From contig OZ024743.1 in assembly GCA_964016885.1 (NCBI GenBank), positions 237,274,001 through 237,338,000 on the forward strand: a DNA stretch of 64,000 nucleotides. The letters are read 5' to 3'. Positions 771 through 63,956 of the stretch are shown piece by piece; within the stretch, counting starts at the first letter, position 1, and every line of letters starts with the position of its first letter. The notes below the pieces were generated by a model that ran no database searches, was not told where the DNA came from, and was given only the letters and a program-made list of their open reading frames with translations. This stretch comes from Eledone cirrhosa (lineage: Eukaryota). The position numbers and the translations under genes are program-made.

Positions 771-821
<51 letters not shown>

Positions 822-909
822 ATAATAATAAATGCGAAGACTAAATTCCAAAGAGGGCTCAATAAGGATAAATATATATCAAATATATAAGAATCCTAGA
901 GCAAATTTT

Positions 910-1045: not shown

Positions 1046-1063
1046 TATATATATATATATATA

Positions 1064-1506
1064 TATAAATTACACAAGTATCAAAGTTATGTTCAAATCA
1101 TTTAATCGCTGACAATTGTTCTTCCAAACTTTAGCATTATCAATGTTTGTACATATAATTAACCTCCTATTCAACTGAACAATCATATAGATACATATAT
1201 ATTGATGTTGTGAACAACAGTTTAGTATATATAGGGTGTAATGGATGTGACATACATGCTTAATCTTAATTTGAATTATTGTACAATTCTCGTATAATAT
1301 ATGTCGCATCCATTACACCCTATATATACTAAACTGTTGTTCACAACATCAATATATATGTATCTATATGATTGTTCAGTTGAATAGGAGGTTAATTATA
1401 TGTACAAACATTGATAATGCTCCGATGACTCCAAACTAAAGTTTGGAAGAAACAATTGTCAGCAATAAAATGATTTGAACATAACTTTGATACTTGTGTA
1501 ATTTAT
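1064..1506. repeat. fold-back element with hammerhead motif
   Basis: arms ~1064-1257 and ~1300-1506 are reverse complements; region bounded by (TA)n. Confidence 0.85.
1418..1464 (+). ncRNA. minimal type-I hammerhead ribozyme motif (U4C variant)
   Basis: tgct-CCGATGA-c-tccaaac/taaa/gtttgga-a-GAAAC-aatt-GTC-agca: stems I and II, palindromic stem III, then AATAAA. Confidence 0.75.
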
Positions 1507-1650
1507 ATTCCTGCTCTGTAAAACACCTGATGTTCTTACATTGAGCTATTTCTCTTACTGGTAATAAGGTAGTAGGAAATTACTGACCTTTCCTGTTTAT
1601 AGTTATTTATAGTATAGTATATACATAACTATAAATAGTATCTTTATTAT

Positions 1651-1730: not shown

Positions 1731-2595
1731 GGTGCAGACGATATTTGTTTGCAATTTTCAACTGCTAATTTTATGCAAATTTTTTTTACTTCCGTTGTCA
1801 CTCTTGTCTTCATAAAAACAGTGACTATATTTCCATTATTTATTTTCAGAATAATTGATTATGAATAACTTTGAACCTCCAAATTTGTGGAAGAGACACA
1901 GAGTTTTTTTTGGAATCCGCGCCGGGAGGACAAATAAGGACCAGAAGATCAACTCCCAGAACAACAGGTGGCTCGCTGTCTCATCCAAAGACGTGCCTAG
2001 AGTCATGCAGACAAAGTTTCCAACTACAACATTGGTCTTAGGTGTCGTCAGCAGTCACTTCTTCCCTGAGGGCCTCAAGCTGAACACCGATGGCTACATC
2101 CGCGTTCTGAGCAAGGTAGTAAAGCCCTGGATCGACCAGGTAGCTGCAGGTAGGCCGTATGTGTGGCAGCAAGACTCAACGCCCTGCCATACCAGCCGAA
2201 AGACCCAAGCCTGGCTGTCAGAGAACTTCGTCGACCACACTTCACCTGACATCTGGCCTCCCAGCTCGCCTGACTGCAACCTCCTCGACTTCTTTGTGTG
2301 GGCGCAGTGGAACGAGACACCAACAGATCTAGCTGCAATACGAAAAATTATCTGAAGGCCAGGATCACCAGTGCCTTTAGGGGCTTAAGTCGGGGGACAG
2401 TGACGACGGCCTGTAGCCGGTTCCGAGGCCGCCTTGAGGCTGTCATCAAAGCCAATGGCGGGTTTATCGAGTGAGATCGAAAGAACAAGTCATGAAGACA
2501 AACTGACCCAAGTTTGATAAATATATCTTAAAAAATAAAACTACTGTGTTATTTTTTCCTAGACAGTAATCTTGCGAACAAATATCGTCCGCACC

Positions 2596-7377: not shown

Positions 7378-7446
<69 letters not shown>

Positions 7447-8672
7447 AGTGTAAGTTTCTACACAAAACGAAGGTTATAGAGAAAATTGAGGTTGGTAATG
7501 GCACATGGAATATATAAGAGACAGAATACTTTTTTGTGAAAAAACATATAATTTTATAAGGTAAGGAAATAATAAAGGGTATAAAAAATGACCGGTTTCG
7601 ATGGGGCTGCAAAAGCCATCTTTTCAAATGTTGATTAATATTAAGAAAATTAATAATAAGAAGAGTTAAAATTTGAGATTTGAAAATTCAAGTATAAAAT
7701 TCAGTGTGGGATTTCATAGTAGTTTTCATCTTGGTAGCAGCAAGTTGACTGCTGTGTGCCTTTCTGGTAGTGAATGAGGAGTTATTTGGGGGAGTGGGTT
7801 ATTTTATAAAGGTCAGATTTAGCAATGGCCAGATGGCCAGCTGCTGGTCAGTGAGGGGGTGGAAGCAATATACATACATATATCTCCCTGTGGTCGGTAG
7901 GAGAGGGGAGAGTGATAGAAAGGGATTTAGTGCACTTACACCTATATATACACACATACCCTCATCCACACACACATACATATACATATACATATATATA
8001 TATATATATATATACATATATATACATATACACACATACATACACACACACATACATATACACACACATATACACATACACACACACACACATACACACA
8101 CACACACATATATACATACATACACACATACAAACACACACACACACATATATACACATACACACATATATACACACACACACATATATATACACATACA
8201 CATACATCCAGATACACACACACACAATACATACACATACATACATCCACATGCACACACATACACACACACATACATATACATACACCCACACACATAG
8301 AGAAATGGCCTCCAAATATATATATATATACATACATACACATATATTTTTTCCATAATATAAGAAGTTAGGACAGTGAAATTAAAATACAAGTCATTCT
8401 GATCACATTGAGTTCTTCATGTAGATTGGGCCCCGCAACCGACAGTGGTGAATTCTGTGTGCGCATATATATATGTGGATATATGTGTGTGCACGTGCAG
8501 GGTTTAACATGGATGTGTTGGTCACACAAAGGCATGGTCTGTCAACGAATAAACCTGATTCTACAGAATTGGTCTCTGGTCTTTAATAGTAGTGATAATT
8601 ATATACATGCACACATACACACACATATATCTGTCACTCCGTGCGTATGTGTGTTTATATTTTATGACAATT

Positions 8673-9960
8673 CTATTGGGGTGATAACCCGTTTAGTTTT
8701 GGTTTAAATTTGTTAAGGAATAGATTTTCTTTGTTTATTCTTTGTTGCTGTGTGAACGAATCTGAGCACTTGTAGAAGGGGAAGATTTTAAAGTTGGGTA
8801 GTGTCATTCCTGCGCAGTTCGCAATATGGCTGCTCAAGGGGATTTTTCTTGTGTTAGCGTCCCGGATTTGTTGGCGGTGGATGGTCATTCTTTTGCGTAA
8901 TGAGGTGCCCGTCTGTCCTATGTAGTTGTGTTTGCACCCACCGCAAGTTATTGCGTAAATCAAGTTCTCCGAGTTAGGTGAAATTTTTTTTACTGTAAAT
9001 GTTTGGCCATCTTTAAATGTAAATTTGTGTCCTTCAGTGAGGTAGAGGCACGTTCCACAGTTTGTTCTACCACATTTGGTAACTGTAGGGTTGAGGATTG
9101 GTTTGGGTATATTTGGTCCAGTGAGAATGCGTTTTAGTGATTTGGGTTGTCTTTTACTTTTAAGGATCTTGTGTGTTTCAAGAATAGACTTCATTTTTAC
9201 ATCTTTAAGTAGGATGGGGAGGTTTTTGTGTAGGTGATCAAACATTTCGGTATTTCTGGGGTTGAAAGTGGATACATATGGCAGGGTGTTGAGTGTGGTT
9301 TTCTGTTTGGGATTGTTAAGTTGATGGGGATTTAGGTGTTTTGCCCTGTCTATTCCATTGTTGATTATTTCAAGTGGAAAGGCTCTTAAGATAAGGGTGT
9401 CTTTTAGTTCCTTTAGTCTTTGCTCCCGTTTAGGTGGATCTAATACTATGGTACATATACATTTGGCCAAATTGTAAGGAATGTTAAGTTTTGTATGTTT
9501 TGGGTGACTTGATGTGAAAAAGAGGTATTGCTTGGAATCTGTGGGTTTATAGAATATATCTGTATCTAATTTCCCGTCTATTACAGAGATGAGAATATCC
9601 AAGAAGGCTAACTCCTTGGGATTGGATTCCATTGTGAATTGTATGTTATTATCTATGTTGTTTATCATGTTTTTAAACATAGTAAGTGAGTTCATGTCTT
9701 CTTGCCATAGGATAAAGCAGTCGTCTAGATATCTTTTCCAATTGGCTTTGAGGTGTGTGTGGAAAGAGTCTCCAAATAAGAGAAGGGACTGACTGTATAT
9801 TTGTTGTTCATGGAATCCCATGACTAGGTTGGCATATGTGGGTGCTACTTTCGTGCCCATTGCAGTACCTGATACTTGTCTGTATGTTGAACCATTGAAT
9901 GTGAAGTAGTTATTTTGTAGGATAAAGCGGAGTCCGTCAGTGATAAAATCTTTGTTGATG
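8673..9960 (-). pseudogene. PLE ORF remnant: RT (GTAMG..APTYANL, RYLDD), thumb, Cys knuckle, GIY-YIG endonuclease
   Basis: ORF 8673-9860, extending upstream in frame (NNYFTFNG..YRQVSGTAMG); KCGRTNCGTC linker and LIYAITCGGCKHNYIGQTG with internal CxxC, typical of Neptune-clade PLEs; N-terminal RT missing. Confidence 0.9.
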
Positions 9961-10264
9961 CGGTGTTGGTGTCGTTGTGGAAGAATTCTGTTAGTCGCAG
10001 CTTTCGGCAGTATTCCATGATGTCATCCTTCATTTCGGGGAAGTTTGGTTTACGTGTGTGTATGTATGTGTGTATCTGGATGTATGCGTATGTGTATATA
10101 TATGTGTGTGTGTGTGTGTATATATGTGTGTGTGTGTGTTTGTATGTGTGTATGTATGTATATATGTGTGTGTGTGTATGTATGTGTGTGTGTGTGTATG
10201 TGTGTGTGTGTGTGTGTGTGTATGTATATGTATGTGTGTGTGTATGTATGTGTGTATATGTATA

Positions 10265-10309
<45 letters not shown>

Positions 10310-10672
10310 GTATGTATATGTATATGTATGTGTGTGTGGATGAGGGTATGTGTGTATATATAGGTGTAAGTGCACTAAATCCCTTTCTATCACTCTCCCC
10401 TCTCCTACCGACCACAGGGAGATATATGTATGTATATTGCTTCCACCCCCTCACTGACCAGCAGCTGGCCATCTGGCCATTGCTAAATCTGACCTTTATA
10501 AAATAACCCACTCCCCCAAATAACTCCTCATTCACTACCAGAAAGGCACACAGCAGTCAACTTGCTGCTACCAAGATGAAAACTACTATGAAATCCCACA
10601 CTGAATTTTACACTTGAATTTTCAAATCTCAAATTTTAACTCTTCTTATTATTAATTTTCTTAATATTAATC

Positions 10673-10720
10673 AACATTTGAAAAGATGGCTTTTACAGAC
10701 CCATCGAAACCGGTCATTTT
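10673..10720 (+). ncRNA. hammerhead motif in PLE 3' repeat (U3-A8 variant; mirrored at ~7585-7632 - and in both arms of the 55280 element)
   Basis: TTGAAAA-gatgg...ccatc-GAAAC-cg-GTC; palindromic ACCGGT stem III; weak stem I. Confidence 0.65.
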
Positions 10721-10859
10721 TTATACCCTTTATTATTTCCTTACCTTATAAAATTATATGTTTTTTCACAAAAAAGTATTCTGTCTCTTATATATTCCAT
10801 GTGCCATTACCAACCTCAATTTTCTCTCTATATATATATATACATATATATATATATAC

Positions 10860-10894
<35 letters not shown>

Positions 10895-10914
10895 CATATA
10901 TATATACATATACA

Positions 10915-11144: not shown

Positions 11145-12162
<1,018 letters not shown>

Positions 12163-15680: not shown

Positions 15681-16060
15681 CACTGCAAAGTGATTGTGGA
15701 GGTACCACGGCAAAAAAAGCACCCAGCCCACACTGTAAAGTGGATGTGTAGGCGCCACGGAAAAAAAGCACCCAGCACTCACTATAAATGAGGTTGGTGT
15801 TAGGAAGGGCATCCAGCTGTAGAAATCAAGCCAGAATCAGTTCCCATATGAGCAAGACAAGGTCAGCCGACCGGACACTGCCCACAACAGGACAACCCGT
15901 CTAACCCATGCTAGCATGGAAGAACGGACATAAAACGGTGATGATGATGATGATGATATATGTATATATATATACATATATGTATATATATATGTATATA
16001 TATATATATATTTTTTTTTTATACATATATATATATATATATATATTTTTTTTTTATACA

Positions 16061-16102
<42 letters not shown>

Positions 16103-16187
16103 TATTATATTTATATATATATATATATGTATATTGTATTTATATATATATATTATACTATATATATATATATTATATTTATATACA

Positions 16188-16243
<56 letters not shown>

Positions 16244-16249
16244 TATACA

Positions 16250-17040
16250 TATTACGAACAGCGATGTTACATGGCAGTCAGACATGGGCCTTGTGTGCAG
16301 AGGATCTACGCAGACTGGAGAGGAACGAAGCTTGCATGCTCCGTTGGATGTGTAATAGTAATATACGCGAATGGCAAAGCATAAACGAACTAAGTGAGAA
16401 ATTAGGAATAAGAGGGATCAGATGCTGTTTACTCGAGAGAAGACTACGTTGGTATGGTCACGTGATGCGCATGAAAGGTGACAGCTGTATAAAAAAGTGC
16501 AGGGCGATCAATATAGACGGTAGCTACGGAGTAGGCAGACCGAGAAAAACCTGGGACGACTTGATAAAATCCGACCTCACACATACCTCTCCAAGACAAT
16601 GTCACTGGACCAAGATCTTTGGTGCTATGTAGTAATACAGAAGACCCGCCTTGCCTAAGTACAAAGCGAAACCTACAGTCAGAAGGCACCTCTTAACCAA
16701 AATACAACCCCCGTCCCACTAACCCTACCCCCACTGCCATCTACACCATCCCTTTCAATGTAAAGCTATGTTGGTACCACAACATCCAGTCCTAAATAAA
16801 TGAGGTCATGTAGGTGTCACGACAAAAAAACACACAGTCCATGCTGTAATGTGGCCGTGTAGGTAACACGGTAAAACCCTCCCAGTCCACACTGTAAACG
16901 TGGTTGGTGTTAGGAAGGGCATCCAGCCGTAGAAAACCCGCCAGACAGTCCTGAGCAAGACAACCAATCTTGCCTCAAGTGGGACAATTCCCATCTAGAC
17001 CCAAATGGAAAATGGACGTTAAACGATGATAATGATGATG
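16250..17040 (+). mobile_element. RTE-clade LINE 3' fragment with 3' UTR and (GAT)n tail
   Basis: MLHGSQTW...[13 protein letters not shown]...[12 protein letters not shown]...GRPRKTW; tail aaacgatgataatgatgat. Confidence 0.88.
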
Positions 17041-18057: not shown

Positions 18058-18184
18058 CTGCCAGAGATAAAGGGTTCTAATTAAGGAACAAAGAGAGCAA
18101 ATACGTGGGAAGTGGAAAGTTTATTACTCTTGGGACCCAAATAATAGGTGTGGGGGTAAAATAAGTGGGGTGAGAAACAGATAT

Positions 18185-20635
18185 TGTGCAAACAAGGTGC
18201 AAACGATTTCCTTGAACTAGTGCTGGACTCAAACTGGTCACAAGTAGTCACCTCTCCAACAAGAGGTGACAACACTTTGGACCTGATCTTCACCACTACT
18301 CCTGAAGTGGTTATCAGTTGTACTACTGAGGAACCTCTAGGCGACTCTGATCATGCTATGATCATTGCCAATCTGGCACTTGCGGGCAGCAACAGAAACC
18401 AGAGCCATCTCCAATCTGCTTGCTTTGATTGGAAGAAAGCAGATTTGAACTTGTACTGCACTGAGCTACAGCGCCCAAACTGGCATGAGATGTATAACTC
18501 TGGAGATGTGAACACTATACTCCAGAGCATCCTGGACTCAATATGGATAGCGTGTGCAGCATCGGTGCCACGTAAGCAGAAAAAAAAAACACCCCAAAAG
18601 TGCAATTTGGGAAACTTCAGCGGTCCGACTTGCCAGGAAAGAACGTCAGAACGCTGAACGGGAATATAAACTGCATAAATCAGATGCCAACAGAAAAAAG
18701 CGGAATAAATCTTCTAACCATCTCAAGCAAGTGACAAAGAAGACAGTGCTTGAATTTTAACAGTGCATAGCAACCAATCCTGACAGTAAGGTGTTCTGGA
18801 AATATGTTCATTCAAAGCAGAGACCTCACTCTCCTGTTGGTCCTCTTCGCAATCCCCACACAAGCCAGATCACTGACGATCCCAAAGAATGCGCAGAACT
18901 CATTGCTGAGTGCTATGCAAGTATTTTTACTGTTGAAAACCAGAATGTACCATCTCCACCATCTCTAACATCAAATTCCATAACAACTATGGAATTTACA
19001 CCTGCAATGTTGCGACGTCACCTTAAGAATAAGCGCAACTATGCCTCCCCTGGTCTTAATGGTGTTACATACCTGCTTCTCAAATGTGGCGGGTATTTCC
19101 TTTTGCGCCAACAATGGTGCTACTCCGGAGCAGTGGAAAACTGCCAGTGTCATTCCCCTGTTCAAAAAGGGCAACCGCATGTCACCTGTCAACTATCGTC
19201 CAGTCAGTCTTACTAGCTGTATGGCCAAACTGATGGAATCCTGTGTCAGAGAAACACTTTGGAACTTCTGGAGCTCTCACAGCCTCATCCGGCCCTCACA
19301 GTTTGGATTTATCCCTAACTCCAGCTGCTGTGATCAGCTTATCGAGTTCCTTGAAGACATCATCCGGATCACTGACAGCGGCTCATGGGTGGATGTTGTT
19401 TACCTTGACTTTGCTAAGGCTTTTAATTCTGTGCCACACAAAAGACTTATGGCAAAACTCTCTGCAATGGGTGTGAGGGATGATCTTTTTGACTGGTTGA
19501 AATCCTTCATTCTCAGCCGAAAAGAAGTAGTCACGGTTCTAGGACAGCATTCTTCACCATATGAGATGTCATCTGGTGTACCACAGGGATCTGTTCTTGG
19601 TCCCCTTTTGTTTGTGGCATATATTAATGACATAGATGCCAACTTACAGAATGCCATGGTACTGAAATATGCAGATGACATCAAGCTGTACCTTGAAATC
19701 AAAAGGACTGATCATGAAATCTACAACTCTTTCCTACAATCAGACCTGGACACAATGCAGCAATGGATCACAGACTGCAACTGAAGCTGGCTGTGGACAA
19801 GTGTACCACCATGCATTTTGGGAGGAAAAATCCAGCGTCCACATACTCGCTCCACAACACTGATATCAAGAAGTCCTCTTGTGAACGTGACCTGGGCATT
19901 ACTGTCAGCAGCGATTTGCGTTGGACAAAGCATGTCTCTAAGATTGTCAAGAAGGCTGAGGGTGTCTTGGCATCACTCAGCAAGACCTTTGTTAGCCGCT
20001 CCCCAGCCATCTATTTAAAACTGTATACAGCTATGGTACGACCACACTTGGAATTCGCATCATCAGTCTGGAACCCCTATCTTGCTCAGAACATTGACCT
20101 CCTGGAAACTGTTCAGAGACGTGCAACCAAGCGCATACCCTCCATCAGACACCTACCATACTCTGAACGCCTTGCTTCCCTGGGCATGGATTCATTGAAG
20201 CTCTGACGTCTGGCAATGGACTTGGTAAATACCCACAAAGTTATTAACCATCTCGCCAATTGCAACCCTGAGCACCTTTTTGATCTCCATGTGTCTAACA
20301 CACGTGGAAATGCTTACAAAATCAGAAAACAGCACAGCTCCCATGACTTTCGTAAACATTTTTTCATGCTCAGAGTTGCTGAAGCATGGAACAAACTGCC
20401 TGCATCAGCTGTTAGCTGTCGAGACACTGCATCCTTTAAGACACTCATGCTTCCCGAAATACGCCAAAACTACACCTGATGTACCCCTTCCATACACATG
20501 CACACATGTGTGTATCATGACTCATGCACTGTTCATTTTCCTGATGTTTGTACATTACCCTATGTACTATACATACACTTTTTGATGAGTTGTAGTGCAC
20601 CTGAGCACTGTACACAATATTTCATTATTATTATC
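18185..20635 (+). mobile_element. CR1-clade LINE, 5'-truncated ORF2, frameshifted (intron 6, antisense to gene)
   Basis: APE end (PTRGDNTLDLIF, LGDSDH), NYRPVSLTS, VYLDFAKAF, SGVPQGSVLGPLLF, YADD, VRPHLEFASSVWNPY, RVAEAWNKLP; (ATT)n tail. Confidence 0.92.
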
Positions 20636-22644: not shown

Positions 22645-23703
22645 TCACTTCTGTATGACTGTGTAGCGCCAAAGATCTCTGTCCAGTGACATTGTCTTGG
22701 AGAGGTGTAAGTGTGTGAGGTCGGAATTTATCAAGTCATCCCAGGTTTTTCTGGGTCTGCCTACTCCGTGGCTAGCGTCTATTTTTATCGCCCTGCACTT
22801 TTTTATACAGCTGTCATCTTTCATGCGCATCACATGACCGTACCAACGTAGTCTTCTCTCGAGTAAACAACATCTGATCCCTCTTATTCCTAATTTCTCC
22901 CTTAGTTCGTTTATGCTTTGCCGTTCACGTATATTACTATTACACATCCAGCGGAGCATGCAAGCTTTGTACCTCTCTAGTCTGCATATATCCTCTGCAC
23001 ACAATGCCCATGTCTCACTGCCATGTAACATTGCTGTTCGTATGCAGGCATCATACAGCCTGCCTTTCATTTTTAGAGAGAACCCTTTAGCGGCCAATAG
23101 TGGTATAAGCTCTCTGAACTTTTTCCATCCCGTTCTGACTCTAGCTACTGTACTTTCAGAGCACCCTCCCCCACTGCTGATTTTGTCACCCAGGTAACGG
23201 AAGGTGTCCACTATTTCTATAGAACCATCTGTGCAATGGCATGAGCTAGTATTCTGTGGGCACTTGCTGCTACTTATTGCACCAGAGCACTGGCCACATA
23301 TAAAATCTATATTCTTAGTTAGCTTACCTGTGATCCCACTACATCTTTTATGCACCCATACTTTGCATTTGAGACATAAAATGGAGTTTCTGTCTACTCC
23401 TTTCCTACACACTGAGCATGGCCATTTGCCAGATGGGACCGGTGCCCTATTTTCCTTCCTACAAACTAGAACTTTAGTCTTAGACAAGTTAACTTTAAGG
23501 CCTTTTGATTCTAGGCCATGCTTCCATGTTTGGAATTTCTTCTCTAGTTCAGCCATTGATTCAGCTATGAGCAGTAGATCATCTGCATATAGGAGTTCCC
23601 ATGGGCAGCCGGTCTTGAACTCCTCTGTTATAGCCTGAAGGGCAATAATAAATAGTAGGGGGCTAAGAACGGAGCCCTGATGAACACCAACTTTTACGCT
23701 GGT
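22645..23703 (-). mobile_element. RTE-clade LINE fragment (RT C-half with Cys/His finger)
   Basis: GVHQGSVLSPLLF, LLYADD, CSVC...CLKCKVWVHKRC...[17 protein letters not shown]; open frame. Confidence 0.92.
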
Positions 23704-23722
23704 GTATATATATATATATATA

Positions 23723-23769
<47 letters not shown>

Positions 23770-24337
23770 TTTACGCCCAGTTTTCCATGCTTGCATGGGT
23801 TATATATATATATATATAATCCTGTAATTCAATGAGCTCAAAGGAAAGAGTTTTCCTGGGCACTTTAAAATACAACACGCTGAAACAATCTCTTAGTGAG
23901 TTTGTACATGTGCGATTTAGTTCTGAGGTAGGTTTTTCATTTTAATTTATCCTTTTAATTATGTTTCTCCTATACCTCTCTTAGCTTATATACTCTTCAC
24001 GCTGGTGGTTTACAATCCTGTAAATGTAAACACACTCTCCTGCGTTTTTCGTCTCTATATTGTATTTTAAAGTTACTGTAGGTTCACCAGAGTGGGCATA
24101 AGATGTGTAGTTTCCAGTAGGTATAGAGATGTATTACTAAGCAGAGTGTAATAATTGTTTCTACTTTTGGCACAAGGCCAGCAATTACCCAATACATTAC
24201 TGGTACTTTATTTTATTGACCCCGTAAGGATGAAAGGCAAAGTTGACCTTGGCGGGATTTGAACTCAGAATGGAAAGGGCCGTAACTCTATGCGTCAAAT
24301 CATGACGCCCGACTCTCTACCAATACTGCCAATCCAA

Positions 24338-24614
24338 TAATGATAAAAAAGACAATTTATTATGTTTTCATTATGTCTATTGAGTAGTGACGTGCGTTTT
24401 GCTATTGATCAGCTCAAGGTTCAATCTGTATTGATCTAGCCCAACTCTGGAATCAAAAGCTCGTCGGACATTTGTTGTGGTAATGACAGAGGTCCAATAA
24501 GCTTTTGATTCCAGAGTCGGGCTAGGTCAATACAGATTGAACCTTGAGCTGACCAATAGCGAAACGCACGTCACTACTCAATAAACGTAATGAAGACATA
24601 ACAAATTGTTCTTT

Positions 24615-24625
<11 letters not shown>
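24338..24625. repeat. fold-back element with partial hammerhead-like 3' half
   Basis: ~122-bp diverged arms; gct..agc-GAAAC-gcac-GTC, then AATAAA. Confidence 0.75.
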
Positions 24626-31723: not shown

Positions 31724-33190
31724 GGCATAAAACTGATGGATCAAGTTATGAAAATGATAGAAAGAATGCTAGCACAACTAATTAGAGAAAGGGTCAAATT
31801 AGATGAGGTGCTGTTTGGTTTTGTGCCTGAGAAAAGTACAACAGATGCCCTCTTCTTAGTGAGACAACTACAAGAGAGATCTTAGAGAAGAATACACCAC
31901 TATACTTAGCTTTTGTTGACCTAGAGAAGGCCTTTGATAGGGTACCTCGATCTGTCATCTGGTGGTCCCTAAGGAAACTAGGTGTAGAGGAATGGCTTGT
32001 GAGGACAGTGCAAGCTATGTACAGAGGTACTGTCAGTAAAGTGAGAGTAGGAATGGAGTTTAGTGAAGAATTCCAGATACAAGTAAGAGTGCATCAGGGT
32101 TCGGTCCTCAGCCCACTCTTGTTCCTTATAGTTATCCATGCCATAACAGAGGAGTTTAAGACTGGATGCCCATGGGAACTTCTCTATGCTGACAATCTGG
32201 TACTTATAGCAGAATCAGTAGAGAAGCTAGAGAATAAATTCTGGCTATGGAAACAGCAGTTGGAAGCAAGAGGACTGAGAGTGAACCCAACTGAGACTAA
32301 AGTGTTGATAAGTAGGAAAGAGGACAAAACTCTGATTCCATCAGGGAAATGACCATGTTCAATATGTAGGAAAGGAGTTGGCATAAATTCTATAAAATGT
32401 ACAGAATGCAGATCTTGGGTACACAAGAGATGTAGTGGAATAGCAGGCAACCTAACAGGTAGAGAAAACTACATATGCAGTAGATGTTCAGGGAAATTTG
32501 ATAGTAGAAGTGGCAGTGATAGACACACTTTTCAAATGCAGGTAGGTTCTATAGAGGTGGTTGTTAGCTTCCGATACCTAGGTGATCAGATTAACAAGGG
32601 AGGAGGGTGCTCCGAGGCCATAGTATCTAGAATAAGGACGGGTTGGAAGAAGTTTAGGGAGCTGCTTCCGCTGTTGACAAAGAAGAGTTTCTTCCTACGA
32701 ATGATAGGCCGGTTATATGATGATTGTGTGAGATGCGCAATGATGCTGCATGGTAGTGAGATATGGGCAGCAACTGTGGAGGATATGCGACGGCTAGAGA
32801 GAAATGAAGCAAGCCTGTTCCGATGGATGTGCAATGTCAATATGCGTGAACAACCAAGCATGGACGAGTTGAGAGAGAAACTGTGTATAAGAGGGATAAA
32901 CTGTTGTGTGTGGGAGAGGAGATTGCGATGGAATGGACATGTGATGAGCATGAAGGATGACCGCTGGGTAAAGAAGTGTCAAGAAATCCCGGTGGAAGGA
33001 AGAAATAGTAGAGGAAGATCACGAAAAACATGGGCAGTGGTGGTGAGAGATGACCTTAGATCGCTGAAGCTCACAGAGAAGATGACGAAGGACTGTGACA
33101 AGTGGAGAGATGCTGTGCTGAAAAGGACCAGTCCCACCCTTGCAAGCAAGGAAAAGTGGACGTAAAATGATGTTGGTGATAATGATGATG
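31724..33190 (+). mobile_element. RTE-clade LINE, 5'-truncated, decayed, with TSD
   Basis: AFVDLEKAFDRVP, VHQGSVLSPLLF, Cys finger, RWMCNV; (GAT)n-like tail; TSD ttacacat(g/a)tatg at 31711-31723 and 33191-33203. Confidence 0.9.
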
Positions 33191-34890: not shown

Positions 34891-36386
34891 TGATAATTAA
34901 TTTACTACAACAATGATATTTGATAACATTTCATTTTATCGACTGTCCCCTTTCTTTCAACTTACATTGTTAAACCAAACTGTCAGATAAACCAAACTGT
35001 CAGATAATACTGACAACATCCATGTAGAGTTTTAAAAGTTCCAATTATGTTGGTCATTTTATATTTCCCCCCAAAAGAGATCAATACTGGATATTTGACA
35101 GTTGACATTTAACCATTGACATTTGATAGTTGACATTTAACCATTGACATTTGATAGTTGCTAGTTGACAGCTGATAGTTGACAGTTGACAGCTGATAGT
35201 TGACATTTGATAGTTGACAGCTGATAATTGACAGTTGGCAATTGATAATTGACATTTGATACAAACCATATATTAAGTTACTATCTTAATAATTGTTTCT
35301 ACCTTTGGCACAAAGTCAGCAATTACCCAGTACATTACTGGTACTTTATTTTATCGACCCCATAAGGATGAAAGGCAATCTTAATAATGGTTTCTGATTT
35401 AGGCACAAGGCCAACAATTTTAGTGGGGTGGGAAACGTCGATTAAATCAACCCGTGCATTATTGGTACTTAATTGGTACCCCGTAAGGATGAAAGTGAAA
35501 GCTAACCACAGTGGGATTTGAACTCAGAACATTAGAATGTCATAACTAAATAATACAAAGTTTTGGCTGGCACTCTACTGATTCTTTAATTAATTGGAAT
35601 ACAACATTGAAAATTCAATCATAAAAGGGTTAAGAAAAATATTTCAGCATCGTTTGTAGTTATCTCTAAGTATCATGTACAAACACTGACAGACAGATGA
35701 GATGAGATGAGATGTAGTTATCTAACACTGACAGATGAGATGAGATGAGATGTAGTTATCTAATACTGACAGATGAGGTGAGATGTAGTTATCTAACACT
35801 GACAGATGAGATGAGATGTAGTTATCTAACACTGACAGATGAGATATAATTTAAATTGAACTTTGGTTTGAGAGTAATCTTACGATAGAATATCTCAAGC
35901 AAGAAGAGTTATTGTGACCTCATCACGTGACATCAATGTGATTTGTGATTGGCTGGTTCACAGTTTCATATCATGACCTCATCAGAACAACTGAACTTTT
36001 TGGCGGGTGGGCCAACACCTGACATTTGTATAAGAAATGGAAATATACATAAATTGATACAATAATACTTGCTTAGAGAGAGTCGAGGAGGGGGTAGAGG
36101 ACGAGGAGGAGGAGGGGGGGGGGAGAAGAAGAAGAAGAAGAAGAAGAAGAAGAAGAAGAAGAAGAAGAAGAAGAAGAAGAAGAAGAAGAATCGATCCGAC
36201 TATGGAACTGGTACTTTATTTTACAGATCCCTTGAAATTATGAAAGGCAAAGTTGGTATCAGTGAGATTTGCAGAAGGTCAGGAAGAATACCCCAAACTA
36301 TCTGACTTTCTAATGTCTCTGCCAAGTTGTAGAGTTTACGACCCTTATATAAAGGTTCCTAGTTTTACCAAACAAAATGTACTTAC

Positions 36387-36843
36387 CAAATGCAAGGCTG
36401 ACAAAGATCCTGCCAGGTAGAGTATGATATACTCCAACCGTCTGGAGAATGGAGCCGATGATGTGAAGGACACCCGATGTTAAAATGGTTTTCTTTCGTC
36501 CAATATTATCGGAGAGTTGACCACACAAGACGGAACCAAACATAGCTGCACCGCTGGTAACACCAACCAAAAGTTCTTTCCAGTATGTTGACTTGGGAAA
36601 ATCTTTCTTTAGCAAGAGGAAACCCGACACAGCCAGCATCTGGTATCCCATCAGGAATGAATAACTGAGACTGCAGAACAACATTGCATAAAATCTCAGA
36701 GTTAATTTACTTTCGTATATTTCCACTTTGGAACAATCATCCACTGGCTTTTCAAACTCCAGTGATTTCCGATCCATGCCCAAAGAATCTAGAATCATTT
36801 CGTTTTCAGATGAAGACGGAGACATTTCCTCAACAGGTGGCAT
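36387..36843 (-). CDS. SLC2A13: SLC2A13/HMIT-like sugar porter (MFS), coding exon 1 of 9
   Basis: ATG at 36843; MPPVEE...SFLMGYQMLAVSG (TM1)...GQLSDNIGRKKTIL (sugar-porter motif A)...GRIFVSLAFG; donor G|GTAAGT; 457 nt, ends phase 1. Symbol reflects family resemblance; may be a divergent paralog. Confidence 0.9.
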
Positions 36844-37074
36844 GGTGTTGTTTGTAATTACCGAGTTAGATGTCTCGTCGGCGTTTTTATAGTTGGTTTT
36901 TGTTATGTAAGTCGCTGCTCAAGCTGTTTATGGAGAACTGAAAAGAAACGTAAATAAACTCATAGTTTGACTAATCATAGATGTGGAAACTGTAGATAAA
37001 GAGAGCGAGAAGGTGAGGGGGTGAGGAGCAGAGAGAAAGTGGTGGGGTGAGTGAGAGGAGATAGAGTGAGAGAG

Positions 37075-37340: not shown

Positions 37341-37524
37341 AAAAACGCCAGGTGGAGGAGACAGAGAGAGGGGGGCATAAAAGGAGGAAGGGAAGAAAAG
37401 AGTGGGATGAGGGGTGTTAAAACAAAAACCAACCAAAATAAATGTTATACCCTCACACACAAAATACATAACTAGCGACCCCCAGGTCTCGAATAATCGC
37501 CAGACCTCTTCCGTTTATTAAATC

Positions 37525-37739
37525 TTACTAATCTATCTCCGGTGAAACTTTATGTTAAGTGGTAGCATTCCTGTGACAATTCAAGTTCTTTAGATATTAA
37601 AAAACATGTATATATGTTTATGGGATTTCTAGTAATGTACTTTTTTGTTATGTTCAATGTTTTTTAATATCTAAAGAAATTGAATTGTTGCAGGAATGCT
37701 ACCACTTAACATAAAATTTCACCGGAAATAGATTAGTAA
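37525..37739. repeat. fold-back element, ~85-bp arms
   Basis: ttactaatctat...aaaaaacat and its reverse complement; no hammerhead seen. Confidence 0.8.
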
Positions 37740-37744
37740 CATTG

Positions 37745-40925: not shown

Positions 40926-41613
40926 TCGTTGTTGTTGTCGAGTGTAGCCAGGACTTGTCGGTAGCCATCTTGAAATTTCCTCGTGGCGAAAAGTTTTTGA
41001 AATACTGCTAATTTTTCAAAAAAATTTTGAAAGGAATATATTGTATTTTCGCAAGTTGCGAAAAGGCCGGCAACGCAGCAATAAAAGTTCAACTGTATAA
41101 AAAAGAAGGCTGCGCTAAATTCTTACGTCGGTCACCACTTTAGCAGTGTAGCAGTATGAATGGTCGTGAGTTGACAGTGTGGTAAAATGATAGTATCCTC
41201 GTTGGATTAAATATCGATATAGACGTGAGGGAAGGTCCCTCGCCTATTTACCATCTTTGTATTTACAATATTCCTTTCGTCAGGTCGCCAATTCCAGCAG
41301 CATGGATTATAGATGTTATTGAGACACGAGTAACATAATAATGATTTCAACAGCAGAAATTATTATTATGTTTCTCGTGTCTCAATAACATCTATAATCC
41401 ATGCTGCTGGAATTGGCGACCTGACGAAAGGAATATTGTAAATACAAAGATGGTAAATAGGCGAGGGACCTTCCCTCACATCTATATCGATATTTAATCC
41501 AACGAGGATACTATCACTTTACCACACTGTGACCACTGGCCACAGCTACACTGGACACTGCCACACTAACGACCTTCATTCATCTACCCTGCTAAAGTGG
41601 TGACCCCGACGTG
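38926..41613 (-). mobile_element. non-autonomous Gypsy-like LTR element: full 3' LTR (39461->38926), truncated 5' LTR (41362->41138), PBS, plus inverted LTR end + PBS (41362-41613 +)
   Basis: ~225-bp direct repeat; TGTAG LTR start after weak PPT ggaggtat; PBS tggtgacc(cc)gacgt complementary to the eukaryotic tRNA-Trp 3' end; U5-like motif shared with the solo LTR at 54348. Confidence 0.72.
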
Positions 41614-44685: not shown

Positions 44686-44920
44686 TATAATATAAAACGA
44701 AACATCAGTGATGGATCTGAACTCAATTTATTGTGTGTTACAATTGTTTCGCCGGCAGACAGCTCGAGACACGATCATTGTGTTGATCTGACGAACCTGC
44801 AGATCCAGAATCAGACAGATCCACACAATGATCGTGTTTCGAGCTGTCTGCGGGCGAAACAATTGTAACACACAATAAATTGAGTTCAGATGCATCACTG
44901 ATTTTTCGTTTTATATTATA
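44686..44920. repeat. fold-back element with degenerate hammerhead
   Basis: ~105-bp arms; gtgt...ggc-GAAAC-aatt-GTA-acac, then AATAAA. Confidence 0.8.
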
Positions 44921-45842: not shown

Positions 45843-45848
<6 letters not shown>

Positions 45849-46469
45849 GAAGAGAGAAGAAACATTTAGATATAATTAGTAATAAAATGTATCATACCTA
45901 AACTGCTCCTAGATTCCTCGACTACGTAGTTTCGTGGCATAAACAAAAACAATACATCATAAAGATATATATAACGGTCGAGAAACAGAGCTAAGCCTCT
46001 TATAACCCCGAAGAAAATACCACGGAGGCGGAGGGGGTATTCATATCGAAGCCGTAGAAGAGGTGGTGAAGGAGGCGAGAAGTATGAGTAATGGAAGCTT
46101 TCCTTACTCATACTTCTCGCCTCCTTCACCACCTCTTCTACGGCTTCGATATGAATACCCCCTCCGCCTCCGTGGTATTTTCTTCGGGGTTATAAGAGGC
46201 TTAGCTCTGTTTCTCGACCGTTATATCGCGTGACTATCTCCCCCTCCGCCTTTTGGGATTCTTTCTCACGTCGTGTAGACGCGTTCTTGAGACTAGTAAA
46301 ATGAGGTATCCTCTTGATAAGTCGGCAGACCTCGCAAGGACTCTATATCTTTATGATGTATTGTTTTTGTTTATGCCACGAAACTACGTAGTCGAGGAAT
46401 CTAGGAGCAGTTTAGGTATGATACATTTTATTACTAATTATATCTAAATGTTTCTTCTCTCTTCATAAT
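45843..46469. repeat. fold-back with internally deleted left arm; hammerhead at 46310-46397 (+), U3-A8 core
   Basis: outer arms 45843-45968/46344-46469, inner arms 45968-46092/46103-46226; cctc-TTGATAA-gt.ggc...gccac-GAAAC-tacgta-GTC-gagg. Confidence 0.85.
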
Positions 46470-46626
46470 GTATTTTTAACTCTGATACTGGTTCAGTCTA
46501 GTTCAACCGGATTGGTCTGTCCCAGTCATTCATTGAGCAACATCTGTGAAGTTGGCACCCTTAACTCACGGTTGGGTGCGGGTGCATTCATGTATATGTG
46601 TGTGTCCGCATGTATCTGTGTGTTTC

Positions 46627-46679
<53 letters not shown>

Positions 46680-47861: not shown

Positions 47862-47862
<1 letters not shown>

Positions 47863-48049
47863 TAAGTTATTCCGGGTTGAATCGGAGGTAACCACAGTAA
47901 GTAAGGTACTCAATACATAGCAGAGTATAAAAGTTTTAATATAGATGAGATTCTACAGGACTAGAACTGTTTCATTCTTTAGAAATCATCAGCCAGATTC
48001 CTGATGATTTCTAAAGAATGAAACAGTTCTAGTCCTGTAGAATCTCATC

Positions 48050-48054
<5 letters not shown>
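47862..48054. repeat. hairpin whose arms are a hammerhead core + tail; family fragment also at ~63200-63244
   Basis: arms 47939-47992/48001-48054; CTGATGA-t-ttc/taaa/gaa-t-GAAAC...GTC. Confidence 0.8.
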
Positions 48055-54347: not shown

Positions 54348-54804
54348 TGTAGTAAGACGCCTTACGCCCCCTAGCGGATAATGGATCAGGCCTAGTTGTC
54401 TCCCCCTGGTGGAGAACACCGAGGTAACCAGCAGACAGCCACGGGAAAGCAGACGGTATACACGCCACAGAAAACAGCCTCTGTACCACGAAACGATAAA
54501 CAGCCATCGGGAACAGCAAACACCACAATACCTTTGTAATTGTAATACTTCCCTTCACCACATCTGGATCACGTATATATTTGGTATGTTTCATTTGTAA
54601 TATAATAAACACATATAAACAAAATAAACATCACCATTATTTACATTTGTTGAATATAACTCTCGTTGTGGTTATTGTCTTGTTTACGCACACACCCACT
54701 CACTTTGTTATAATTCTCACTTACAAAAATGGTAAATAGACGAGAGACCTTCCCTCACGTCTATGTCGATACACAATCCAACTAGGATACTACATTTTAC
54801 CACA
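54348..54804 (+). mobile_element. solo LTR (Gypsy-like)
   Basis: TGTAGTAA...TTACCACA termini, 4-bp TSD gagt on both sides, internal AATAAA; 457 bp. Confidence 0.8.
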
Positions 54805-55198
54805 GAGTTAAACCATTCTGTTAGGAAAGCACTGTTATTCCACAAAGGAAGAGAGATTATATTTCTATTCTAAAGTTGAAGATGTATTTGCTAACTAAAC
54901 CCAACTCGCTTTTATCAGAATTAATTCACGTACATTTGTTACTAATAAAATTGTCTTGTTGATCTTTAAATATCTGGCTTATATGACACTCTGTCTTCTA
55001 TTTTGAATATAAAGATAAACCCTAGTAGCAACTATGAAGATGGCACATGCCTCATTATTTTTACGAGGTTTGCAATGAAGGTATTCAGTTTGACAGAGTC
55101 ATTTAGAGAGTTCGTTATAAGTTTTTTCTAAAGTCACGGTTTTCGTGTTCCTGTCCAGTATGGGTAATTCTCCTTTTTAAGGTTTTCTAGTAGGGTGA

Positions 55199-55279
<81 letters not shown>

Positions 55280-55285
<6 letters not shown>

Positions 55286-55887
55286 AGTGTAAGTTTCTAC
55301 ACAAAACGAAGGTTATAGAGAAAATTGAGGTTGGTAATGGCACATGGAATATATAAGAGACAGAATACTTTTTTGTGAAAAAACATATAATTTTATAAGG
55401 TAAGGAAAGAATAAAGGGTATAAAAATTGACCGGTTTCGATGGGTCTGCAAAAGCCATCTTTTCAAATGTTGATTAATATTAAGAAAAATTAATAATAAG
55501 AAGAGTTAAAATTTGAGATTTGAAAATTCAAGTATAAAATTCAGTGTGGGATTTCATAGTAGTTTTCATCTTGGTAGCAGCAAGTTGACTGCTGTGTGCC
55601 TTTCACTACCAGAAAGGCACACAGCAGTCAACTTGCTGCTACCAAGATGAAAACTACTATGAAATCCCACACTGAATTTTATACTTGAATTTTCAAATCT
55701 CAAATTTTAACTCTTCTTATTATTAATTTTTCTTAATATTAATCAACATTTGAAAAGATGGCTTTTGCAGACCCATCGAAACCGGTCAATTTTTATACCC
55801 TTTATTCTTTCCTTATCTTATAAAATTGTTTTTTCACAAAAAAGTATTCTGTCTCTTATATATTCCATGTGCCATTACCAACCTCAA

Positions 55888-55897
<10 letters not shown>
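55280..55897. mobile_element. ORF-less palindromic derivative of the Neptune PLE 3' end
   Basis: near-identical to 7441-7765 and 10531-10827; arms joined at TTC microhomology (~55602); (TA)n/(CT)n flanks. Confidence 0.92.
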
Positions 55898-55949
<52 letters not shown>

Positions 55950-56164
55950 GGGATAACAAGTTATCGTTTTAGGTAATCCAGTTAGAGGTTGTGAGTACTC
56001 TGTACTATGGATAATTTTAATGTACGGCGTTGTTTGACTCAACAAGAGGTTTCCTTAGTTAGGTAGCGAGTTTGGGAGAATTCCCATGCAGGTTATTCTT
56101 GGAGTAATAGTAGTGAAAGAGTGAAGAATAACATGGTCGGCTGTACAAAAAGGGTTTTATTTAC

Positions 56165-56825
56165 AGTATTAACAATTGTTTCATTGATCAGGTGAGTCTA
56201 AAGGCCACTAATCACTCGAAATTGCGTCACTCGACCTTAAATACAGTGTATGTCCCTGATCAAATCATCGCAATAATCTTCACTCTTTCACTATATATAT
56301 ATATGGACCCTCAAATTCGTCGGATTCCTACATTGGATTTTTACTCGAACTCTATTTGAACTTCACTTGGATATCTTTTCGGATCACTGGATTTTCTGAT
56401 AGCTTTTTGCTTTACACCAACATACAAAGACTCACAACCACTTTTTCCACCACTTTTCTCTTCCTACTACTCCCTTCTCCTCAATCTTTCTATTTCTTCT
56501 TTAATTTCTCATTCTATTTTCTGATGAAGGACCAGCGTCCAAACGTCAAGAATTTTTGGTACTATATATAAACTAATAATATATTTTTACATTGTACTGT
56601 GTGGTTTGCTTTATTTCTGTTCGTCTTTTGCATACACACACACACACACAGGCAGACACGCACACACACACACACACCGACTTAATACGCACGTGTTTTT
56701 TCTCCCCAATTTTTTTCTCATTCTCCCCGTTCCTTCCTCTCAACACTCTTTACTTTCTATTCATCTTCTATTTCTAACTCTAACTTCCGATGAAGTACTA
56801 GTGTCCGAAACGTTAAAACTCGCTT
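56165..56825. ncRNA. cluster of three hammerhead-like motifs (~56167-56275 -, 56518-56550 +, 56784-56817 +)
   Basis: CGATGA-tttgatcagg...cctgatcaat-GAAACAATTGTT; CTGATGAaggaccagcgtccAAACGTC; CCGATGAagtactagtgtccGAAACGTT. Confidence 0.6.
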
Positions 56826-56921
56826 CCTGCTATTTCAAGCGTTAAAAAAAACTCTAATATATTTCTTCCCTGTACTGTGCCGTTTGTTTTTTATCTTTTA
56901 TTATTACTTTTACCTACCCAT

Positions 56922-61145: not shown

Positions 61146-61830
61146 CCATCATCCCCTCCCTTACTCCTCTCATTATTTTCTGACCCCACAACCTTTGCCC
61201 ATCCCTTCATTTTCTGTTGTTATATGAAATAGATTTGTTTATGATTTTATAATTTTTATTGATAAAACGTTTTCTAATTACCAGTTATGTACTGGTGTAT
61301 ATATTTGATGGGGGCGACGTCGTCATCTCCCTCTTTCTGTCACACACACACACACACACACTCTCTCTCTCTCACACACACACACACACTCTCTCTGTCA
61401 CACATACCACACACTCTCTCTCTCACACACACACACACTCTCTCTCACACACACACACACTCTCTCTCTCTCACACACACACCACACACTCTCTCTCTCA
61501 CACACACACCACACACTCTCTCTCTAAACAAATGGTATTCCATGTATCTATGTACATCTCTCTCACTTGGTGCCCCCTCTCTCTATATAAAGTGAGCGTG
61601 ACTGACAGACAGACAGCGCTCTTATAATGATTTCTGACACAAGGCCAGCAATTTTTTTGGGGGGGGGGGGGGGGGGGTCGATTAAATCGACGGCTGAGCT
61701 CTTGCCGTTTCGACAGCTAATATCCAGCTGTCGGGCCTCGAATCATATATATATATATTAGAAAGTGAGTTTTTTTTTACAAAATGAAAAATAACTGAGG
61801 TGTCCTACACGAGTGAAAGTATAAAGAAAA

Positions 61831-62107
61831 AAAGATGAAATCGAAAATGCAACTGGAGTCTTATTTTAAAAAAAATATATATATTTATTTGGTTCCTTTA
61901 CCGGTTTCGCAGTTCTTCTGCTTTTCAAAAGTAGAGTTGAGATGGAGGGTCTGTGGTTTTTCTCACAGTTGAGATGTGAGAAAAACCACAGACCCTCCAT
62001 CTCAACTCTACTTTTGAAAAGCAGAAGAACTGCGAAACCGGTAAAGGAACCAAATAAATATATATATTTTTTTTAAAATAAGACTCCAGTTGCATTTTCG
62101 ATTTCAT

Positions 62108-62111
<4 letters not shown>
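61831..62111. repeat. near-perfect 137-bp-arm fold-back; hammerhead at 62011-62046 (+) and mirror (U3-A8)
   Basis: ctt-TTGAAAA-gcag/aagaa/ctgc-GAAAC-cg-GTA-aag, then AATAAA and (TA)n. Confidence 0.88.
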
Positions 62112-62166
<55 letters not shown>

Positions 62167-62605: not shown

Positions 62606-62639
<34 letters not shown>

Positions 62640-63039
62640 AGAAGAACTTTATGAAACGGAAATGCGGGTATAAAGAATTTTTATACCCGCATTTCCGTTT
62701 CATAAACTTCTCCATATTTTCTCCGGATTTTAAAACACACTTTATTATACGTTGAGTAATCTCTGACGTCGGTTGACTCCATCCAATGCAACTACTTAGT
62801 AACATTGGAATACAAATTTACTAATTATATATATATATATATATAAAATAATATATGTACTAATAAACACATATAATTGTTTCTACTTTAGGCACAAGGC
62901 CAGCAATTACTCAGTGCATTACTGGTATAATGCTCAGTATTTATACTTTGAGCCTCTTAATGACAGGGTATCAATATGAGTTATTAACTCTGCATTTTAT
63001 TTATATATATATATATATATGGTATTAAGATTGGTACTC

Positions 63040-63514: not shown

Positions 63515-63627
63515 GAACAATTGTTTCACCTTAGCGGATCCTCAGGAATAACAAAAATAACGAAACAAACGGATATATATATATATATATATATATATCC
63601 GTTTGTTTCGATATTTTTGTTATTCCT
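63515..63627. repeat. minus-strand hammerhead-like motif (63515-63548) plus inverted repeat enclosing (TA)n
   Basis: minus strand CTGAGGA-t-cc/gctaa/gg-t-GAAAC-aatt-GTTC; arms 63544-63572/63598-63627. Confidence 0.6.
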
Positions 63628-63956
63628 GTTTACCTTTTACAGACACACACACGCTGAGAGTGTGTGTGTACGTGTGTAATATATACATATTGCAGCAATA
63701 CTATCAACCTATTGACTTATCTCTAAATTAGAGTGAAACCCCAGCGTCCTTTCTTCAGATGTGTCAATCAATCCACCTTCTCCTTCACATCTTATTCCAA
63801 ACTCTTTTCTTCCTTATTATTCTTCCACTTTTTCTTCTTTATTTATTAAGACTACATACATCTGTGTTCATACTCGTTATAGGAAGTGTTTACACGCACA
63901 TACATACATACATACATACATACATACATACATACATACATACATACATACATACA

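What the first reader, a model, noticed from the sequence alone, without database searches (positions are those of the whole stretch)
55280..55897. Parent-derivative pair links the palindromes to a Neptune PLE, with reproducible asymmetric ends
Seen: this ORF-less palindrome consists of the same 3' end as the RT/GIY-YIG element at 7441-10827. In both insertions one arm runs to ...acttacacttttca(TA)n, while the other stops ~37 nt earlier at ...ttttctct, where the element continues with ata. The arms meet at a TTC microhomology. Long/short arm asymmetry recurs at 1064, 45843, 47862 and 61831. Inference: both ends of a break in (TA)n were primed on element RNA (one at the tail, one at an internal TA microhomology), and the two cDNAs were joined head-to-head.
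Basis: partly seen in the sequence, partly recalled or inferred. Interest (0 to 1): 0.8.

Follow-up and report, generated by a model that had tools for sequence, protein, structure and literature searches.

The report
Penelope retroelement primed from both ends
This 614-base palindrome is a truncated, back-to-back insertion of a Penelope-like jumping gene into a TA repeat, and its uneven ends are the known Penelope 'tail'; copies across the genome suggest that it likely forms when both sides of a DNA break each start copying the element's RNA at a different fixed site and the two copies are then joined.

Summary
The palindrome at 55282-55895 is the terminal repeat (pLTR) of a Neptune-type Penelope-like element (PLE) with 2417 exact arm matches in this genome. 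The 37-nt asymmetry is the published PLE 'tail'; a tail at one end of an inverted copy, and two RT start sites bounding it, are in print. What the copies add: 100 arms end at only two sites, both internal to the element and both with TA microhomology. All 35 inverted insertions with both ends visible pair one long with one short end (16 of 16 in a second family). Inner junctions vary, are microhomology-rich, and either arm can be longer, so neither a MITE nor simple fold-back fits. Both arms come from the same source copy. Extra (CT)n occurs only at short ends (748 vs 0 genome-wide), probably RT stutter. Inner ends cluster about 30 nt downstream of a TATA box in three families, so ORF-less palindromes are likely paired run-off cDNAs ending at the RNA 5' end. 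The element at 7441-10827 is a defective sibling, not the parent. Verdict: new member of a known kind, with useful genomic evidence on an open mechanism.

The parts
55202..55281 (.). (TA)n target, left side
55282..55604 (-). Long arm: pLTR plus 37-nt tail (tail about 55282-55316)
55602..55604 (.). TTC microhomology at the inner junction; 7-nt spacer 55605-55611 belongs to the short arm
55602..55895 (+). Short arm, starting about 2 nt after the predicted transcription start and ending at the short site
55896..55927 (+). 16 extra CT units at the short end, likely RT stutter
55928..55949 (.). (AT)n target, right side; followed by a different high-copy repeat
55750..55787 (+). Minimal hammerhead-like motif (U3-A8 core variant, palindromic stem III), read by eye; Rfam did not detect it in the sibling element
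55429..55466 (-). Same hammerhead-like motif in the long arm
7443..10054 (-). Sibling insertion, long arm, carrying a 5'-truncated and internally deleted ORF2
8673..10022 (-). Open frame of 449 aa: RT C-terminal part, CX4CxxC linker, GIY-YIG endonuclease
10051..10827 (+). Sibling insertion, short arm (about 760 nt)
10497..10530 (+). TATA box and predicted transcription start inside the pLTR
1063..1650 (.). Family D inverted insertion (Hydra-like PLE), ends about 140 nt apart
45846..46640 (.). Family E inverted insertion (non-coding, about 592-bp tandem unit with a hammerhead motif at 46308-46399), ends about 165 nt apart
47862..48054 (.). Family C palindrome (Hydra-type PLE), tail about 65-77 nt
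61760..62112 (.). Family B palindrome (second Neptune-type PLE), tail about 62 nt

Best explanation
The palindrome is an inverted, 5'-truncated insertion of a Neptune-type Penelope-like element in (TA)n, likely made when the two 3' ends of one target break each primed reverse transcription at one of two fixed internal sites 37 nt apart and the two cDNAs were joined head-to-head. Shown: element identity, two fixed outer ends, one long plus one short end per inverted insertion, microhomology or templated inserts at junctions, same-source arms, CT additions only at short ends, clustering of inner ends 30-33 nt after a TATA box. Inferred: the element's GIY-YIG nuclease cuts both strands of (TA)n; each end pairs with a short TA stretch in the RNA (7 nt at the long site, 4 nt at the short site), but protein or RNA structure picks the sites; the RT slips on CUCU at the short site and adds (GA)n; both cDNAs probably copy one RNA, the trailing RT displacing the leading cDNA; they stop early or run off the RNA 5' end inside the pLTR; microhomology-mediated end joining links them. 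For this copy the short cDNA reached the predicted 5' end and its terminal GAA annealed to TTC ten bases inside the other cDNA. If only one end is extended, a single arm flanked by TA on both sides results.
For: Outer ends: of the first 100 matches on contig C1, 40 short, 54 long, 6 read through into ORF1, no other class. Pairing: 36 of 73 regions are inverted insertions; all 35 with both ends fetched have one long and one short end, one of them 5 nt inside the usual site; chance for 34 such pairs 3e-11. Family B 16 of 16 contiguous pairs, family C 7 of 7 close pairs. Either arm may be longer: long 18, short 12 (9 by more than 100 nt), equal 3 of 33. Microhomology in 24 scored junctions: 16 of 2 nt or more, 12 of 3 nt or more, against 17% and 6% at random, p 5e-9; 7 more carry inserts, 5 of them locally templated by eye. 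Arms of one insertion differ by 0.9-1.2% against 3.0-3.6% between insertions and share rare variants. Stutter: 34 of 40 short ends have 1-30 extra CT units; 748 arms genome-wide with two or more extra units, 0 with extra CT followed by the tail. Inner ends at TATA+30: 17 of 30 arms in family B, 11 of 30 in C, 4 of 100 in this family; genome-wide 17 loci join TA there against 4 at a control site. In vitro precedent: a Poseidon PLE cuts and extends both strands, starts RT at two internal sites bounding the tail, and is predicted to be a dimer (PMC11167929).
Against: No empty site or target duplication could be seen, so the break geometry is untested. In the in vitro work the start sites were not homologous to the target and did not differ between strands, so strict long-short pairing is not reproduced there. 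Same-source arms and the excess of near-symmetric pairs (10 of 33, 1.7 on shuffling) also fit fold-back copying or later gene conversion. The TATA+30 cluster is weak in this family's own sample (4 of 100) and no RNA data confirm the start. CT length rises with arm divergence (rho 0.48, p 0.03, n 20), so part of it grew after insertion; one family D copy (L217) has a CT run where its template has none. About half of the regions hold a single arm or other layouts.
Confidence: 0.68

Rival explanations
1. Fold-back (self-priming): one cDNA is primed at the target, its 3' end snaps back at a short inverted match, and DNA synthesis copies it to make the second arm, as proposed in general terms for PLE palindromic junctions (PMC3846280).
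For: Arms share subfamily and rare variants; 10 of 33 pairs are near-symmetric; three junctions are perfect palindromes at self-complementary hexamers; this copy's TTC...GAA could form a 3-bp hairpin.
Against: A copy cannot be longer than its template: the short-ended arm exceeds the long-ended one by more than 100 nt in 9 of 33, and a short-ended cDNA cannot supply the tail. In this copy the spacer belongs to the short arm. A copying polymerase would meet a longer TA run first, yet ends there number 1. It can still act as a later step after two primings.
Confidence: 0.14
2. The tail comes from staggered endonuclease resolution of a DNA intermediate (hairpin, circle or tandem), which is then joined to the target, as suggested in PMC8557442.
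For: A fixed stagger would give exactly one long and one short end per insertion; the short site lies in a predicted stem in one fold (z -2.3).
Against: It does not explain CT additions at one site only, TA microhomology at both sites, or single arms with either end. In vitro the two tail boundaries are RT start sites.
Confidence: 0.12
3. Two independent insertions at one TA site, or later recombination between neighbours.
For: PLE families here often land in each other's TA flanks; L245 is such a case.
Against: No TA run between the arms in the 24 scored junctions; strict pairing and shared rare variants would not be expected.
Confidence: 0.03
4. The palindrome moves as a DNA MITE with long inverted repeats.
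For: One other locus has the same junction; L106 and L121 share a centre; three family B copies share one.
Against: 2 junction matches among about 2400 arms; L134 lacks this copy's variants; termini are asymmetric and vary in CT length; recurrences sit at the predicted RNA 5' end or at a palindromic hexamer.
Confidence: 0.02

Closest known systems
Neptune clade of EN+ Penelope-like elements (Craig et al. 2021, PMC8557442; passages, section 11 and supplement part 54 seen)
   Same: RT followed by C-terminal GIY-YIG; CX2-5CxxC linker with Neptune-length spacer; CCHH; (TA)n target; partial tandems; inverted 5'-truncated copy; 30-40 bp tail often at one end only.
   Different: The paper ascribes the tail to endonuclease resolution and gives no counts of end pairing, stutter or junction position in what I saw. 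No tree could be built against named references here.
PAc, Poseidon element of the green anole (Frangieh et al. 2024, PMC11167929; parts 1-3 of 4 of the main text read, 3 supplementary text files searched, figures not held)
   Same: Two internal RT start sites bounding the tail; both target strands cut and extended; AT-rich target; predicted dimer; hammerhead not required.
   Different: There the sites lie inside the ORF and are not homologous to the target, and strands did not differ; inverted insertions are not discussed in the text read. Here the sites lie upstream of ORF1, both have TA microhomology, and the ends pair long with short.
Adineta vaga and Drosophila virilis Penelope elements (PMC3846280, PMC2377424; passages seen)
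   Same: Inverted pLTRs, optional 31-37 bp tail on one of them, TATA box and start site inside the pLTR.
   Different: Self-priming was proposed for the inverted junctions; pLTR regeneration was left unexplained.
Inverted minimal-hammerhead pairs in Schistosoma mansoni PLEs (Cervera and de la Pena 2014, PMC4209133; passages seen)
   Same: Two pLTR hammerheads 100-700 bp apart on opposite strands; U3-A8 core variant.
   Different: Noted as truncated PLEs without a mechanism in the passages seen.
L1 twin priming, and LTR-element strong-stop DNA (both recalled; twin priming seen only in a search listing)
   Same: Both target ends prime on element RNA and the cDNAs are joined by microhomology; a short cDNA primed near the RNA 5' end runs off it.
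   Different: In L1 the second site is variable and the two segments do not overlap; here both sites are fixed and the arms overlap, giving a palindrome. No tRNA primer or integrase here.

Membership tests
EN+ Penelope-like element | RT with C-terminal GIY-YIG endonuclease | tested here: met
   Pfam GIY-YIG E 6e-6 above cutoff, RVT_1 E 0.003 below cutoff on the truncated frame; 777-aa ORF2 in L094; 1588 homologs at E 1e-30, mostly unnamed
EN+ Penelope-like element | pLTRs from partial tandems, plus inverted truncated copies | tested here: met
   Tandems of about 4.9 kb in L075, L094, L105, L104, L118; 36 inverted insertions in 73 regions
EN+ Penelope-like element | Optional 30-40 bp tail equal to the sequence following the 5' pLTR | tested here: met
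   37 nt, continues into ORF1 in 6 of 100 arms
EN+ Penelope-like element | Hammerhead motif in the pLTR | tested here: inconclusive
   U3-A8 minimal motif by eye; none in Rfam at E up to 10 on 7400-10900; not the minimum-energy fold
Neptune clade | CX2-5CxxC linker with long spacer before GIY (short in Nematis, absent in Poseidon) | tested here: met
   CX4CxxC then about 24 residues to the next Cys, as in Neptune rows of Fig. S2; compared by eye
Neptune clade | CCHH motif in EN; GxKF and DKG motifs; Neptune-like RT3 and RT4 | tested here: met
   Seen in ORF2 and compared by eye with Fig. S1-S2 rows
Neptune clade | (TA)n target preference | tested here: met
   All 94 terminal arms are followed by TA-rich runs
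Neptune clade | Placement in an RT phylogeny with named references | not testable with these tools
   No named reference set in the data folder; Neptune is itself paraphyletic in PMC8557442
Naiad or Hydra clade | N-terminal EN (Naiad); RWK, DKT and no CCHH (Hydra) | tested here: not met
   This family has C-terminal EN, DKG and CCHH. Family C does show RWR and DKT; family D is 40-48% identical to it
MITE / DNA transposon | Fixed unit with symmetric termini and one shared interior | tested here: not met
   Junction in 2 places only; asymmetric ends; variable interiors
TPRT insertion | Target-site duplication or defined empty site | tested here: inconclusive
   Hidden by (TA)n; public contigs break at the repeats

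The most novel reading that the evidence does not exclude
TA-targeting PLEs (Neptune and Hydra) integrate by obligate two-site twin priming: one dimeric RNP on one RNA assigns one break end to each tail boundary, the RT adds repeats by telomerase-like slippage on a 4-nt template at the short site, and priming in the 5' pLTR yields paired strong-stop-like cDNAs. Their joining makes the many short palindromes of this genome, and their transfer to a 3' pLTR could regenerate pLTRs and tandems.
Probability: 0.4. Interest if true: 0.72.

Novelty: new member of a known kind. Interest (0 to 1): 0.48.

Why it matters
How PLEs build their tandem and inverted ends is named as open in PMC8557442 and PMC2377424, and the only full-length in vitro study did not address inverted insertions in the text read. 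The counts here turn it into sharp predictions: one long and one short start per break, repeat addition at one site, run-off at a mapped start. PLE RTs are the sister group of telomerase, so in vivo traces of repeat addition would be of interest. Practically, thousands of short palindromes in this genome would be mis-annotated as MITEs. The structure itself is known, which caps the score.

Tried and rejected
Empty-site comparison: four contig runs from at most two samples were laid on 54600-56900; no piece spans the insertion and the tool skipped the repeats; no relatives are held for this genome. Target duplications marked by interruptions in TA runs: not readable in 24 flank pairs. Rfam: only simple-repeat noise. 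Tail structure: one fold has z -3.5, another -2.3, with different pairings, and the common variants do not covary, so no structure is claimed. Frameshift stimulator: no stable fold (z 0.06). Protein search gave no clade names. Tiny partner arms at the 5' side of single-arm insertions: none seen in 35 junctions printed. CT runs as pre-existing target: rejected because the opposite flank is pure TA. Earlier-findings searches returned nothing. Literature searches showed no paper reporting strict long-short pairing, CT stutter or start-site clustering for PLEs; most subscription papers are not in that library, and Arkhipova 2006, Evgen'ev and Arkhipova 2005, the 2017 Terminon paper and Pyatkov 2004 (not held) were not seen and may hold part of this. 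Also opened without bearing: PMC9977147, PMC5408684 and bioRxiv 10.64898/2026.07.22.740005 (passages only).

Full report
Observation. The window holds a palindrome with a long arm at 55282-55604 and a short arm at 55602-55895, flanked by TA runs. Both arms are 96.7-98.8% identical to the two ends of the insertion at 7443-10827, which encodes part of an RT and a GIY-YIG endonuclease on the minus strand. Both insertions have one end after ...CACTTTTCA and the other 37 nt earlier after ...TTTTCTCT. The arms of the palindrome share TTC.

What the family is. A 27-mer just inside the short end has 2417 exact matches in the 3.0-Gb genome, the reversed control none. I fetched the first 100 matches on contig C1 as 73 regions. 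Three of them give a whole unit of about 4.9 kb between two pLTRs. The unit has ORF1 (421 aa, no Pfam match in the 327 aa scanned) and a 777-aa RT-EN frame that overlaps it in the -1 frame at a T6A heptamer kept in 14 of 15 element reads over that site (overlapping loci are counted twice). ORF2 has GxKF, DKG, a CX4CxxC linker with a spacer of about 24 residues and CCHH, which by eye match the Neptune rows and not the Nematis, Poseidon, Naiad or Hydra rows of Figs. S1-S2 of PMC8557442. No tree was built. The window's element lacks ORF1 and ORF2 residues 87-347 and lacks two variants found in both palindrome arms: a defective sibling of the same subfamily, not the parent.

Outer ends. Of the 100 arms, 40 end at the short site, 54 at the long site and 6 read on into ORF1. 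The read-through shows that the long site is internal too, with ATATATA matching the target; the short site has TATA. The sample requires the 27-mer, so ends further upstream would be missed. I tested the best candidate, a longer TA run 38 nt upstream: 1 end genome-wide. One partner arm (L084) ends 5 nt inside the short site. So microhomology is present but does not select the site. This 37-nt piece is the PLE tail: 34-37 bp in D. virilis, 31 bp in A. vaga, 30-40 bp and often at one end only in PMC8557442, and bounded by two RT start sites in vitro in PMC11167929.

Pairing. 36 of the 73 regions are inverted insertions. L110 was set aside because its far end was not fetched; the other 35 all have one long and one short end (classified by me from these outputs). 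Independent ends would give this for 34 pairs with probability 3e-11. For family B (61831; 10949 matches; ORF2 56% and ORF1 47% identical to this family) I fetched 19 candidate pairs: 16 contiguous insertions are all long plus short (the script mislabelled L261 by taking an outer arm; read by eye), L245 is long-long but has TA runs and other elements between the arms, and L262 and L263 are over 9 kb apart. Family C (47862; 16581 matches; Hydra-type ORF with RWR and DKT) gives 7 of 7 close pairs, with more than one short site. Family D (1064; 67 matches; Hydra-like) and family E (45843; 7786 matches; non-coding tandem unit of about 592 bp with a hammerhead motif) show two ends about 140 and 165 nt apart.

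Inner junctions. Of 36, I scored 24; 7 with inserted bases and 5 in low-complexity sequence were left out. Exact microhomology, hand-checked against the printed alignments, is 2 nt or more in 16 and 3 nt or more in 12, against 17% and 6% for random positions. Five inserts copy nearby sequence, a pattern I recall as typical of polymerase theta end joining. The finding's junction exists in 2 places; the other (L134) has different flanks and variants. In 33 pairs the long-ended arm is longer in 18, the short-ended in 12, equal in 3 (L075, L094, L110 left out). This excludes pure fold-back from one cDNA. Against a simple picture, 10 of 33 pairs are within 30 nt of symmetry (1.7 on shuffling), and the two arms of an insertion differ by 0.9-1.2% against 3.0-3.6% between insertions (35 pairs including the two window insertions and L134). 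One source RNA, fold-back of part of an arm, or later conversion would each give that.

Inner ends and the promoter. In three families the inner ends cluster 30-33 nt after a TATA box in the pLTR: 17 of 30 arms in B, 11 of 30 in C, 4 of 100 here. Genome-wide, 17 distinct loci of this family join TA directly at that place, against 4 at a control site that more arms cross (29 and 6 raw matches). The finding's short arm starts there. The simplest reading, inferred and without RNA data, is that this is the RNA 5' end and that ORF-less palindromes are two run-off cDNAs primed in the 5' pLTR. It accounts for recurring junctions without a moving unit. A start inside the pLTR is in print for other PLEs.

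CT additions. 34 of 40 short ends carry 1-30 extra CT units before the TA run; 748 arms genome-wide have two or more; none has extra CT followed by the tail; the CA next to TA at 54 long ends never expands. Four of seven pairs with identical arms already have extra units (8, 8, 5, 1), but length rises with divergence (rho 0.48, n 20), so some growth is later. RT slippage on CUCU at priming is the likely origin; repair-polymerase slippage is not excluded, and L217 in family D has a CT run without such a template. Stutter at the long site would add TA and be invisible.

Mechanism and verdict. The best reading is two-site priming at both ends of a break in (TA)n, probably on one RNA, followed by end joining (0.68). 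Fold-back (0.14) and staggered resolution of a DNA intermediate (0.12) remain; double insertion and MITE are unlikely. Roughly half of the regions are single arms, mostly with TA on both sides by eye, or tandems and internal inversions, so two productive primings are common, not universal. Empty sites could not be read. The structure is known, and so are the two start sites; the pairing rule, stutter and start-site clustering were not found in eight searches of an open-access library, with several key papers unseen and figures not held. New member of a known kind; interest 0.48.

Noticed in passing
L094:3845-3929 (- strand); also L023, L029, L075, L105: ORF1 and the RT-EN frame overlap in the -1 frame at a conserved T6A heptamer, a likely programmed frameshift. 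Family B (L250) has a homologous ORF1 and overlap. The Fig. 1 legend of PMC8557442 mentions a frameshifted ORF1 in some PLEs; which clade could not be seen.
   Followed up: partly
window 1063-1650, 45846-46640, 47862-48054, 61760-62112: Tails of about 140, 165, 65-77 and 62 nt, longer than the 30-40 bp given in the papers seen.
   Followed up: partly
window 45846-46640; L221-L244: Family E is a non-coding tandem unit of about 592 bp with a U3-A8 hammerhead, two fixed ends and inverted pairs: a retrozyme-like, likely non-autonomous PLE with 7786 matches. Its driver is unknown.
   Followed up: partly
window 820-1045, 11285-11547, 24336-24625, 37521-37743, 41174-41530, 44686-44920, 62634-62717, 63543-63628: Further short palindromes; 820-1045 has one arm about 90 nt longer and a hammerhead-like core by eye.
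   Followed up: no
L134, L125, L070, L095, L245; window 55950 onward: Different PLE families sit in each other's TA flanks, building nested clusters.
   Followed up: no
L114, L124, L096, L112: Insertions with internal inversions that lack a second terminal end, resembling classical twin priming at variable sites.
   Followed up: no
window 7935-8360 and 10051-10350: The 3' UTR holds a long TA/CA-rich tract that varies in length between copies.
   Followed up: no
window 1855-2355; 15934-16632, 22645-23799, 31831-33165; 18160-20206; 36310-36918: By eye, names recalled: a Tc1/mariner transposase fragment, RTE-like and CR1/L2-like RT fragments, and an exon of a sugar-transporter-like membrane protein.
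   Followed up: no
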